Assembly: GCF_035084215.1 (NCBI RefSeq)
Contig: NC_090331.1
Location: 72,664,001-72,728,000, forward strand
Source of the DNA: Heptranchias perlo
Taxonomy: Eukaryota
Reading direction: 5' to 3'
Length of the DNA stretch: 64,000 bases
The position numbers were made by a program, and so were the translations under genes. Below, one piece after another: positions 22,676 through 25,274 of this stretch. Positions within the stretch are counted from its first letter, which is position 1, and every line of letters begins with the position of its first letter. The notes beneath the pieces are model-generated. The model saw only the letters and a program-made list of their open reading frames with translations. It was not told the origin of the DNA and searched no databases.

Positions 22676-25274
22676 CTAGAAATCCCTCATGCGCCTGAAA
22701 GATCCAATAGTTGAGCTGTAGCCGCCCCAGTCACTGAATCTCCTGTATTCACCGGGTCTCATGAAGTACTGACGGCCTCTGTAGTTGGGATGTTCATAGA
22801 AGGTCCAGTAACCGTCCATCACGTGGCAGGAGTGAATGTCACGGTAGCGGAAACGATCGTAGACAGATGGACAGTCATCCATGAATTCCATCATCTGTCC
22901 TCCAAAGTCAGGCCTCTCGTAAATCCTCAGTCTGTAGGAATCATCTCTGTACTGTAATAGAAATAAGATCATATTTGGATGAGCTATAAATGTATATTTC
23001 AGTAATATGTAGAAATGATATACCTTGGGGAGAGGGAGTTTTTCAAGAGGTGCAGATAATATTATTAAAAACAAGATGAAAGATGAGATGTTGTAAAATC
23101 TTCCAAATTTAATTACATTATAGCCTTATGATCATGCAGCTATTTCTGTACTGCAATATAGTGAAATATTCATAACATAAATTCAGGACTGATTCTTGCT
23201 AACCAAATGGATACTTGTTGGTTACTTAATTTGACTAAGGTTCTGTTTTATTTCTCTTCAGGCTGAGGTTAAATCTCTCTATGCTGGTAGACCGTACATA
23301 GGTTTCTCTTTTTTATTTAATTCACAAAGCCGTTACAGTAAAACCAATAACATATGGCAAGTTCCATCCTGTAATTTCTCAGTTTGGGTTTTGGTTCTAA
23401 ATATTTAATATTAAGAATATTTAATTAATTGAATTAAACAGTCGTATTCCTAGCTTTGCACTAATGTAAGGAATCTTACAACACCAGGTTATAGTCCAAC
23501 AAATTTATTTTAAAATCACAAGCTTTCGGAGATTATCCCCTTCGTCAGGTGAATGAGTGAAAGGTTCTCAAATCGCATATCTTATATTAGGCTGGGACAC
23601 CATCACACCAATCAAAATGTGTCGTTGGTGTTCAGACAGATTAGCCACAGAGAACAGTACGTCCCAGTACACTGAATATACATTGTGTCAAATTACACAG
23701 ACAGAGAGAAAGAGACCCAAATGGCAGAGAGAGAGAGAATATTAAAAACAGATAACTTTTTTTTCTCCTCACTGGTGGGGTTACGTGTAGCGTGACATGA
23801 ACCCAAGATCCCGGTTGAGGCCGTCCTCATGGGTGCAGAACTTGGCTATCAATTTCTGCTCGACGATTTTGCGTTGTCGTGTGTCTCGAAGGCCGCCTTG
23901 GAGAACGCTTACCCGAAGATCGGTGGCTGAATGTCCTTGACTGCTGAAGTGTTCCCCGACTGGGAGGGAACCCTCCTGTCTGGCGATTGTTGCGCGGTGT
24001 CCGTTCATCCGTTGTCGCAGTGTCTGCATGGTCTCGCCAATGTACCATGCTCCGGGGCATCCTTTCCTGCAACGTATGAGGTAGACAACGTTGGCCGAGT
24101 CACAGGAGTATGAACCATGTACTTGGTGGGTGGTGTCCTCTCGTGTGATGGTGGTATCCGTGTCGATGATCTGACATGTCTTGCAGAGGTTGCCGTGGCA
24201 GGGTTGTGTGGTGTCGTGGACGCTATTCTCCTGAAAGCTGGGTAATTTGCTGCAAACGATGGTCTGTTTGAGGTTGGGTGGCTGTTTGAAGGCGAGTAGT
24301 GGAGGTGTGGGAATGGCCTTCGCGAGGTGTTCGTCGTCATCGATGACATGTTGAAGGCTGCGGAGAACATGGCGTAGTTTCTCCGCTCCGGGGAAGTACT
24401 GGACGACGAAGGGTACTCTGTTGGTTGCGTCCCGTGTTTGTCTTCTGAGGAGGTCTATGCGATTCTTCGCTGTGGCCCGTCGGAACTGTCGATCGACAAG
24501 TCGAGCGTCATATCCCGTTCTTACGAGGGCGTCTTTCAGCGTCTGTAGGTGTCCATCGCGTTCCTCCTCATCTGAGCAGATCCTGTGTATTCGTACTACA
24601 CTTTAAAACTACTTCAATGGCTGTGAAACATTTGGCACATCTTTAAGTCATGAAAGGTGCTATATCAATGCAAGTACTTTCAAGTTTGCTCTTTTTATCT
24701 CTGTTGCTAGGTATCAGCTTATTGGCTCTTCTCTACAATGTTGCTTGAATGTCTGTCCCCCTTGTGTCTCGGTGACTAGGATGCAGTCCTCAGGCTGTGA
24801 CCAGCACTATACAGTGTGAGCATGACTACCTTGTACTCTATATGCATTTACAAATTCAATTACTGAGCACAGTAACCATTTTCTGGTCCTCAATCAGTGA
24901 ACAGCACACAAATCAATTTGTCACTTACATATGGGTAGGTGCGACATGACCTGATGCTGTCATTGAATCCCATCCAGCGCTGGTAGTCAGGATATTCTCC
25001 CTTCCTCAGAACATACTGATATCCCATGTAATTGGGTTTCTCATACACCACCCACCAGTCACTCTCAACACGGATGGAGTTACAGCGGCTGAAGTAAGAG
25101 GACAGGTCAGCATAGTCAGTACTGCACTCATGGTGTCGACCCTGGAAGTTCCTGTCCTCGTAATAGATGATCTGAGGAAAAGAGACATAATTTAAATCAA
25201 TTATTTCACAAATTAACAGATATTGAATCAATTGTATTGAAGAAAATTAAAGAGTTTGGCCTTGCCTTTCCCAT
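22676..25274 (-). CDS. crygm: Gamma-crystallin (gammaM-type) gene 3, 3 exons, 175 aa; GC-AG intron 1; promoter lacks TATA box
   Basis: Exon1 25266-25274 (MGK|GCAAG); exon2 24929-25171 ([16 protein letters not shown]...); exon3 22676-22951 ([14 protein letters not shown]...RRMRDF*). ORF intact. Confidence 0.9.
23463..24594 (-). mobile_element. Young 5'-truncated Penelope-like retroelement in intron 2 of gene 3
   Basis: Stop-free frame 24593-23781 (about 270 codons; the ORF track shows only the last 82): [10 protein letters not shown]...[10 protein letters not shown]...[21 protein letters not shown]...RMNGHR...EQKLI...GLN, i.e. RT thumb/linker, Cys motif and GIY-YIG endonuclease. CpG-rich; 3' pLTR carries a hammerhead. 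Confidence 0.9.
23516..23552 (-). ncRNA. Minimal type I hammerhead ribozyme, intact core
   Basis: TCAC CTGACGA A GGGGA TAA TCTCC GAAA GC TT GTGA: stem I TCAC/GTGA, stem II with one G-U pair, palindromic AGCT stem III, UH cleavage position. Confidence 0.78.
24595..24676 (+). mobile_element. SINE 3' tail fragment
   Basis: ctacactt...tggctgtgaaacatttgg...catgaaaggtgctatatcaatgcaagt matches the tail of the SINE at 20040-20125. Confidence 0.6.

What the first reader, a model, noticed from the sequence alone, without database searches (positions are those of the whole stretch)
23463..24594. Intact hammerhead ribozyme in sense orientation inside a crystallin intron, delivered by a young Penelope element
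Seen: a stop-free frame of about 270 codons ending in a GIY-YIG endonuclease (mostly missed by the ORF track). About 230 nt downstream is TCAC-CTGACGA-A-GGGGA-TAA-TCTCC-GAAA-GC-TT-GTGA, on the same strand as crystallin gene 3 and inside its intron 2. Established: Penelope-like elements carry minimal type I hammerheads with a palindromic stem III, reported to cleave as dimers. Inference: any gene 3 pre-mRNA would contain a self-cleaving motif whose activity depends on transcript concentration, and crystallin transcripts are very abundant in lens. This could attenuate the gene.
Basis: partly seen in the sequence, partly recalled or inferred. Interest (0 to 1): 0.75.

Follow-up and report, generated by a model that had tools for sequence, protein, structure and literature searches.

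The report
Penelope hammerhead passenger in crystallin intron
A clipped copy of a very common shark jumping gene sits in an intron of one lens-crystallin gene and carries the miniature self-cutting RNA motif such elements are known to have; as a lone copy it likely does not cut, so it is most likely ordinary debris rather than a brake on the gene.

Summary
24595-23463 (minus strand) is a 1,133-bp, 5'-truncated Penelope-like element: a 273-codon RT-thumb plus GIY-YIG frame, then one terminal repeat with an intact minimal hammerhead (23552-23516; predicted cut 23520|23519). It lies in sense orientation in intron 2 of a gamma-crystallin gene of a shark. The motif is not chance (0 hits in 500 shuffles) and covaries with a 58%-identical relative. 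The insertion looks relatively recent. The attenuation idea is weak. Lone minimal hammerheads did not cleave in published tests, and a related one needed the element's protein. Here only 4 bp favour dimer formation, the cleavage triplet ends in U, and the copy lacks the downstream tail. Three more such repeats lie in the first 42 kb. Gene 3 is one of probably dozens of paralogues and has lost the TATA box that its four neighbours keep, so high expression cannot be assumed. If the insertion affects the gene, its sense-strand AATAAA or cryptic splice donor is the likelier route. Cleavage and gene 3 expression were not testable here. The scan has noted this kind of motif many times on other shark DNA.

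The parts
23463..24595 (-). 5'-truncated endonuclease-bearing Penelope-like element (Neptune/Nematis-type linker), 1,133 bp
   Evidence: Family reads diverge from the window at 23463 and 24593-24595 (loose ends); sister copies agree up to 23463
23781..24602 (-). Stop-free frame, 273 aa (first two codons lie in the flank): end of RT thumb, linker C135-x4-C140-x2-C143, GIY-YIG nuclease with C178/C182 and H218/H224. No RT core, so it cannot be autonomous
23463..23780 (-). Downstream terminal repeat (pLTR); ends without the family's 32-nt tail
   Evidence: (table 7)
23516..23552 (-). Minimal type I hammerhead: stem I 4 bp, core CUGACGA, bulged A, stem II 5 bp (one G.U) with 3-nt loop, GAA, palindrome AGCU, U17; predicted cut between 23520 and 23519
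23504..23509 (-). AATAAA 10 nt after the predicted cut, followed by GU-rich sequence: candidate intronic poly(A) signal (untested)
   Evidence: present in all 4 window copies, absent in L001
23907..23915 (-). Cryptic splice donor CGG|GTAAGC inside the element frame (7 of 9 consensus matches, the same score as the true donor)
   Evidence: a Heptranchias gene model (P0034) leaves the element frame at the matching residue
24596..24681 (-). Older, unrelated repeat fragment abutting the 5' end of the element
   Evidence: 77-80% matches at 31610-31690 and 20042-20123; loose ends at 24681
25266..25274 (-). Gamma-crystallin gene 3, coding exon 1 (MGK), with a GC donor
24929..25171 (-). Gamma-crystallin gene 3, exon 2
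22952..24928 (-). Intron 2 of gene 3 (1,977 nt, GT-AG); predicted cut 1,409 nt from the donor and 568 nt from the acceptor
22676..22951 (-). Gamma-crystallin gene 3, exon 3; reading frame intact (175 aa in all)
25300..25325 (-). Damaged promoter of gene 3: the TATAAATA found 65-67 nt before the ATG in genes 1, 2, 4 and 5 reads TATGAAGT here, with a deletion of about 11 nt behind it and a second one nearer the ATG

Best explanation
A 5'-truncated Penelope-like retrotransposon copy sits in intron 2 of a shark gamma-crystallin gene and carries the family's standard minimal hammerhead, which likely stays silent as a lone copy and would be spliced out with the intron. Shown: element anatomy, intact core, covariation, sense orientation, three sister repeats nearby, loss of the TATA box in gene 3. 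Inferred: reverse transcription started just downstream of the hammerhead, ran through the repeat and the nuclease region and stopped in the RT thumb, which is why the motif came along. Inferred: stem III cannot close within one molecule, a partner gains only a 4-bp helix, and the intron is short-lived, so the fraction cut is likely under about 1%. Inferred: the insertion persists because it is near-neutral in one of dozens of paralogues that may already be weakly transcribed.
For: Published: a single min-HHR showed no detectable cleavage, dimers and trimers low cleavage, and 2,000-9,000 motifs occur per genome, mostly as single copies (PMC4209133). The anole Poseidon HHR cleaved only with element protein, and no RNA-seq reads began or ended at the site (PMC11167929). 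Only 1 of 9 Xenopus retrozyme dimers cleaved, and 42-44% of copies lie in introns (10.64898/2026.07.22.740005). In a zebrafish intron three non-optimised but monomer-active hammerheads gave under 3-fold knockdown, against 20-fold for an engineered fast one (PMC11856399). Here: 4 repeat ends in the first 42 kb, 2 with broken cores; summed family depth about 10^5 times the flanks, which shows high repetition but is no copy number; AGCU duplex -2.5 kcal/mol at 37 C, Kd about 17 mM, and about 0.35-1.6 mM at 10-20 C, against about 3 uM for one neighbour within 50 nm; the active dimer is 4.2 kcal/mol less stable than two monomer ensembles in the nearest-neighbour model; with 50-300 nt of flank, stems I and II form with probability only 0.11-0.58; copy ends 57 nt after the cut, tailed sisters at 89 nt; TATA box lost in 1 of 5 genes, this one; one exon-3 contig has about 40-55 times flank depth and the catshark has 41 gamma-crystallin genes (PMC11979771); site apparently empty in organism C.
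Against: The catalytic core is perfect and both helices are intact, whereas 2 of the 3 sister copies in the window have core mutations. The isolated 37-mer folds stems I and II with probability 0.65-1.0. Nearest-neighbour energies ignore tertiary contacts, Mg2+ and proteins, and cold water strengthens the dimer: the most favourable corner of my toy grid (Kd 0.1 mM, 10 uM, 1 per min, 5 min) gives 37% cut, and 4 of the 12 settings give 4% or more. Retrozymes are depleted from Xenopus introns, which hints at some cost. Gene 3 has an intact frame and splice sites. An intronic ribozyme can lower its host mRNA (Cpeb3, abstract only).
Confidence: 0.8

Rival explanations
1. The insertion lowers gene 3 output by ordinary retrotransposon interference: premature polyadenylation at the sense-strand AATAAA just after the hammerhead, or mis-splicing at the cryptic donor in the element frame. 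The ribozyme plays no part.
For: AATAAA at 23509-23504 with GU-rich sequence behind it; introns 2 of genes 1, 2 and 5 have none and gene 4 has one. The donor at 23912 scores 7 of 9 like the true donor, and a Heptranchias gene model exits the element frame at that residue. Such interference is described for intronic L1 (PMC3192792, search listing only).
Against: Two more AATAAA lie in the older part of the same intron (23317, 23252), so the hexamer alone means little. My scan found only 1 candidate acceptor in the intron. U1 snRNP usually suppresses poly(A) sites near a donor (recalled, no call). P0034 is a computed gene model.
Confidence: 0.1
2. One reading: nascent gene 3 transcripts crowd together in lens fibre cells, pair through the AGCU palindrome, form double hammerheads and cut, giving expression-dependent attenuation.
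For: Intact core and palindrome; dimer activity exists in principle; the duplex is stronger in the cold; 568 nt remain to be transcribed after the site.
Against: No tandem partner in cis: the nearest intact copy is 10 kb away, on the other strand and locked in a fold-back. Published activity is low even in cis. U17 triplets are slow (recalled, no call). TATA box lost. Not kept at the orthologous site in organism C.
Confidence: 0.04
3. The motif is cut in trans: transcripts of other family copies supply the partner strand, or the element's protein folds it, so every sense-oriented intronic copy is a weak target whenever the family is expressed.
For: Family sequence, including the hammerhead region, is present in contigs of 4 of 4 runs guessed to be RNA, all from one sample. 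Protein-assisted cleavage is shown for the anole element.
Against: In the anole element the proposed binding region lies downstream, at the RT start and tail; this copy stops before the tail. No reads ended at the site in anole RNA-seq. Contigs give neither strand nor level.
Confidence: 0.05

Closest known systems
Minimal hammerheads (min-HHR) in the pLTRs of metazoan Penelope-like elements (Cervera and De la Pena 2014, PMC4209133; parts 1-2 of 4 read)
   Same: Type I layout, 4-bp helix I, unpaired base before helix II, G10.1-C11.1 pair, palindromic 15.2-16.2 with no loop 3, position in the pLTR, occurrence as a single motif in a truncated copy.
   Different: Helix II is 5 bp (7-8 bp in the Schistosoma families). 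Sharks are not named in the parts read. This copy lies in a crystallin intron.
Poseidon element of Anolis carolinensis (Frangieh et al. 2024, PMC11167929; parts 1-2 of 4 read)
   Same: Hammerhead in the pLTR; two insertion end points separated by a tail; the tailed end lies 89 nt after the cut here and 85-92 nt after it there (my subtraction from the paper's +26 and +111-118).
   Different: This protein has the CX4CX2C linker finger that Penelope/Poseidon elements lack, so it is Neptune/Nematis-type. The copy is truncated and has no RT core.
Neptune/Nematis-type EN+ Penelope-like elements (Craig et al. 2021, PMC8557442; passages read)
   Same: C-terminal GIY-YIG with CCHH, linker zinc finger, 5' truncation, optional 30-40-bp tail, inverted truncated pairs (33543-33757).
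   Different: Clade not confirmed by an RT tree; the second cysteine of the CCHH motif is not invariant in the alignment.
Intronic ribozymes that affect their host gene: CPEB3 (PMC10919898, abstract and outline only) and engineered T3H48 in zebrafish (PMC11856399, section 6 and passages)
   Same: Self-cleaving motif in sense orientation inside an intron, a short distance before the next exon.
   Different: Those act as monomers with measured rates. This motif cannot close stem III alone, has no measured activity and appears lineage-specific.
Chondrichthyan gamma-crystallin cluster (PMC11979771; passages read)
   Same: Tandem paralogues about 3-7% apart; birth-and-death turnover with pseudogenes.
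   Different: Different species. The paper argues that gene number is selected for protein quantity, so dosage may matter a little.

Membership tests
EN+ Penelope-like element | C-terminal GIY-YIG endonuclease | tested here: met
   Motif VVYLI...WYIGET...R...E...N in the alignment. Pfam GIY-YIG hits 4 of 15 aligned members, best E 2.5e-4, but not this copy. The profile hits one PDB sequence, endonuclease II (2wsh), at E 0.024. Weak by profile, clear by motif.
EN+ Penelope-like element | Reverse transcriptase in the same frame upstream of the nuclease | tested here: inconclusive
   Missing in this 5'-truncated copy. Present in close relatives: RVT_1 in 2 of 15 members; P0070, P0083 and P0113 join RT motifs to this stretch.
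EN+ Penelope-like element | CCHH zinc motif with the cysteines inside the GIY-YIG | tested here: met
   C178, C182, H218, H224 present; C178, H218 and H224 invariant in 15 of 15; definition.
EN+ Penelope-like element | pLTR with hammerhead after the ORF, and optional 30-40-bp tail | tested here: met
   Hammerhead 233 nt after the stop here and about 280 nt after the match end in L001; 32-nt tail in 2 of 4 window copies.
EN+ Penelope-like element | Two flanking pLTRs (functional unit) | tested here: not met
   Only the downstream repeat is present. It is a dead fragment, not a functional element.
Neptune/Nematis clades (versus Penelope/Poseidon) | CX2-5CxxC finger in the RT-EN linker | tested here: met
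   C135-x4-C140-x2-C143; C135 and C140 invariant in 15 of 15; definition.
Neptune/Nematis clades (versus Penelope/Poseidon) | Placement in the RT phylogeny | not tested
   No reference RT set was fetched; this copy lacks the RT core.
PLE minimal hammerhead (min-HHR) | Core C3-A9, G12-A14, A15.1-U16.1, H17 | tested here: met
   All present; H17 is U.
PLE minimal hammerhead (min-HHR) | Bulged base after A9, G10.1-C11.1, palindromic 15.2-16.2, short helix I | tested here: met
   features listed.
PLE minimal hammerhead (min-HHR) | Covariation of helices I and II across relatives | tested here: met
   40 of 40 cells pair; 2 of 8 pairs change on both sides; 17 of 500 shuffles reach this; slid controls 25-55%. 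Only 5 sequences, and both double changes come from L001. A fifth stem II pair reads A-U here and G-C in the three sister copies.
PLE minimal hammerhead (min-HHR) | Self-cleavage as a dimer or with protein | not testable with these tools
   Needs an in vitro assay; only contigs, no raw reads, were offered.
Canonical hammerheads in Rfam | Score at the gathering threshold of an Rfam hammerhead model | tested here: not met
   0 matches.
Host-regulating intronic ribozyme (CPEB3-like) | Able to fold an active site within one molecule | tested here: not met
   Stem III would need a 2-nt loop; only stems I and II close.
Host-regulating intronic ribozyme (CPEB3-like) | Kept at the orthologous site across species | tested here: not met
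   One other species examined with cover: a contig of organism C matches the intron at 22982-23462 and leaves the reference at the element boundary. One contig; the 121 further letters were not shown.
Host-regulating intronic ribozyme (CPEB3-like) | Measured effect on host mRNA | not testable with these tools
   No lens RNA identified among the 24 runs listed.

The most novel reading that the evidence does not exclude
Sense-oriented, core-intact Penelope hammerheads in shark introns are cut in trans, by crowded sister transcripts, by other family RNAs or with the element's protein, and more so in cold water. They would then act as expression-dependent brakes, with this crystallin gene a natural test case of a retrotransposon ribozyme tuning or silencing one member of a dosage-selected gene cluster.
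Probability: 0.07. Interest if true: 0.78.

Novelty: new member of a known kind. Interest (0 to 1): 0.15.

Why it matters
As it most likely stands it matters little: it is one clean example of a known motif in a known element class. If cleavage in the host pre-mRNA were shown, it would be in vivo activity for a metazoan minimal hammerhead, which the papers read here leave open, and a case of a threshold-type ribozyme acting on a host gene. The locus is handy for a test because it is a short three-exon gene with close paralogues that lack the insertion.

Tried and rejected
Whole-genome counts and an intron orientation test were not possible: no genome is held. Rfam gave nothing. The loose core pattern is at chance level, and the folding z-score of the 76-mer is unremarkable, 0.76, so neither supports the motif. 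Expression of gene 3: no listed holder is on record as RNA. In the 4 runs guessed to be RNA (X5-X8, one sample, tissue not given) the spliced crystallin contig is a paralogue: it differs from gene 3 at 14 of 16 positions checked and matches none of the 5 window genes at more than 9 of 16. No gene 3 contig was among those listed; this is no evidence for or against expression. Organism D (X11) gave almost no cover of the intron, so it cannot date the insertion. A joint 23502-24601 at single-copy depth in X1 and X4 (27 letters on the short side) could be a deletion allele or another locus; not resolved. A 4-bp target duplication (TAGT at 24598-24595 and 23463-23460) is possible but unproven, since the organism C contig was not shown to continue into 24596 onward. 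More relatives for covariation: 1 of 19 metagenome loci had the motif by my descriptor; a 20-letter repeat pattern found 0 in viral contigs and 0 in prokaryote genomes. The dimer Kd values printed (hundreds of molar and more) are model artefacts and were not used as numbers. My working label 'Poseidon-type' was dropped. Literature: 'gamma-crystallin, pseudogene, TATA box, promoter' gave 0 papers; 'crystallin, hammerhead ribozyme' gave 87, and none of the 10 listed concerned a crystallin gene. Supplements of the papers were not read; the shark entries in supplementary alignments of PMC4209133, if any, were not seen.

Full report
Setting. The window is shark DNA: the frame's best relatives are from Heptranchias (92-93%), Scyliorhinus (86%) and Mustelus (82%). 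No whole genome is held. Five gamma-crystallin genes lie on the minus strand in the first 40 kb, each with three exons and an intact 175-codon frame, 2.7-6.8% apart (Pfam Crystall; best PDB match gamma-M7). Gene 3 runs from ATG 25274 to stop 22676, and its intron 2 spans 24928-22952.

Observation. The stop-free frame 24602-23781 (273 aa) aligns with the end of the RT thumb, a CX4CX2C linker and a GIY-YIG nuclease with CCHH. Pfam does not call this copy, but hits GIY-YIG in 4 of 15 and RVT_1 in 2 of 15 aligned relatives. By the definitions in PMC8557442 (passages) the linker finger makes it Neptune/Nematis-type and not Penelope/Poseidon; no tree was built. Family contigs leave the window at 24593-24595 and at 23463, so the element is 1,133 bp, 5'-truncated, with one terminal repeat. 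The loose core is at chance level and Rfam is blank. A full descriptor finds 2 hits in 1-42000 against 0 in 500 shuffles; I left out the simple tandem arrays beyond 42 kb for that control, and the whole window also gives 2. The same descriptor finds the motif about 280 nt behind the frame of L001, a relative at 58% identity, and in none of the other 18 loci. Across 5 sequences 40 of 40 cells pair and 2 of 8 pairs change on both sides, both through L001. The motif is real and belongs to the element.

It is common. Three more ends of the same repeat lie at 33666-33757 (+, core intact), 33664-33543 (-, core broken, with tail) and 500-372 (-, core broken, with tail). The first two form a fold-back with an 11-bp target duplication. 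Summed contig depth over the element is about 10^5 times the flanks in DNA runs. The tool warns that this is no copy number; it only shows a highly repeated family. Published counts for other vertebrates are 4,000-9,000 per genome (PMC4209133). Intron 2 of gene 4 also holds a retroelement frame (RVT_1), so insertions in these introns are unremarkable.

Age. A 665-nt contig of organism C matches the intron from 22982 to 23462 with 59 substitutions in 481 nt (12%) and leaves the reference at the element boundary, with 121 further letters that did not lay. I read this as an empty orthologous site; it rests on one contig. Of the element rows shown for run X1 (21 rows; 38 rows of the whole table were not shown), all 21 differ from at least half of family depth and 10 from at least 95%, that is 0.9-1.9% of the element. 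Nine of the 12 differences in the frame are silent (P = 0.0004 against 25%), so most were probably inherited from a source lineage under selection and decay since insertion may be near 0.5%. An open frame needs no selection at this distance (chance of no new stop about 0.58). 'Young' holds relative to other repeats. At the epaulette shark rate of 7e-10 per generation (PMC10587355, passages) it would still be millions of generations old; CpG decay and a borrowed rate make that figure loose.

Would it cut? Stem III has only A15.1-U16.1 and a GC centre, so one molecule can close stems I and II only. In the defining paper a single motif gave no detectable cleavage, and cis dimers and trimers gave low cleavage. 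The anole element's motif cleaved only with its protein, was not needed for insertion, and left no read ends in RNA-seq (PMC11167929). One of 9 Xenopus retrozyme dimers cleaved. For this copy, stem I exchange is neutral and the net gain on pairing two molecules is the 4-bp AGCU helix: Kd about 17 mM at 37 C and 0.35-1.6 mM at 10-20 C, against about 3 uM for one neighbour within 50 nm. A toy grid with assumed values gives 0.005% to 37% cut; 8 of 12 settings give 0.5% or less, and the other four need Kd at or below 1 mM together with high concentration or a fast rate. The published rates make the fast settings unlikely. In flanking context the two stems form with probability 0.11-0.58. H17 is U, recalled as a slow triplet (no call). 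The copy stops 57 nt after the cut and lacks the 32-nt tail of its sisters, the region tied to RT start and possibly protein binding in the anole element. Even monomer-active hammerheads gave under 3-fold knockdown in a zebrafish intron (PMC11856399). Against my reading: the core is perfect, the models omit tertiary contacts and proteins, cold helps the dimer, family sequence is present in 4 of 4 presumed RNA runs, retrozymes are depleted from Xenopus introns, and the Cpeb3 ribozyme shows that an intronic ribozyme can matter (abstract).

The host gene. Genes 1, 2, 4 and 5 have TATAAATA 65-67 nt before the ATG. Gene 3 has TATGAAGT and two deletions of about 11 nt. It is also the most divergent of the five, with 7 silent and 11 replacement private codon changes against 2-5 and 3-8 in the others. 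That it is weakly transcribed is an inference; its frame and splice sites are intact. One exon-3 contig has about 40-55 times flank depth, in line with 41 gamma-crystallin genes and at least one putative pseudogene in the catshark cluster (PMC11979771, passages). Halving one such gene would change total crystallin by about 1%. The insertion also brings a sense-strand AATAAA at 23509-23504 and a donor at 23912, which are more ordinary routes to any effect.

Verdict. The regulatory inference is unlikely (about 0.04 as stated, about 0.07-0.09 with trans activation). Best reading, 0.8: a passenger motif in a dead retrotransposon fragment. It is a new member of a known kind. My searches for a crystallin-hammerhead link in print listed none, but they cover only open-licence papers and I saw only the top listings. 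Earlier notes of this scan describe the same kind of motif in many shark introns (77 findings in at least 14 genomes; 76 notes fit in this genome); they are unchecked and were not used as support. Interest 0.15.

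Noticed in passing
window 25300-25325 (-): Crystallin gene 3 has lost the TATA box kept by its four neighbours and is the most divergent of the five: possibly an early pseudogene with an intact frame.
   Followed up: partly
window 33543-33757: Fold-back pair of repeat ends, one with an intact core and one broken, one-sided tail, 11-bp target duplication; the hairpin would lock both motifs.
   Followed up: partly
window 23502-23478 (-) and L001 about 1028-1050: A 22-nt stretch just after the hammerhead is nearly identical between the shark repeat and L001 (protein 58% identical). 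Its two halves can each pair with a part of the tail in crossing order, which suggests a conserved pseudoknot at the RT start. Folding shows both helices as alternatives; two sequence types only, no covariation test.
   Followed up: partly
window 25265, 30540, 39179 (-): Intron 1 starts with GC rather than GT in crystallin genes 3, 4 and 5; genes 1 and 2 have GT.
   Followed up: no
window 12883-12907 (-); L012 about 3802: Hammerhead-like cores of other repeat families; they fail my descriptor.
   Followed up: no
runs X5-X8 laid on window 22652-25173: One spliced gamma-crystallin paralogue that is not among the five window genes appears in all four presumed RNA runs of one sample; if these are different tissues, one gamma-crystallin is expressed outside the lens.
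   Followed up: partly
window 14684-17623 (-) and 27602-29212 (+): Two nearly identical LINE-type RT frames; the second lies antisense in intron 2 of crystallin gene 4.
   Followed up: no
window 8649-9923 (+) with 10226-11435 (-); second decayed copy near 13304-14447: Frames resembling a Harbinger/PIF transposase and its partner gene (label recalled from the sequence, not tested).
   Followed up: no
window about 43000-48000 and 52000-64000: Two long simple tandem arrays that produce long spurious open frames.
   Followed up: no
protein P0034: A Heptranchias cytochrome P450 gene model begins with about 130 residues of this element's nuclease region and leaves it at the cryptic donor: possible exonisation, or a modelling artefact.
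   Followed up: no
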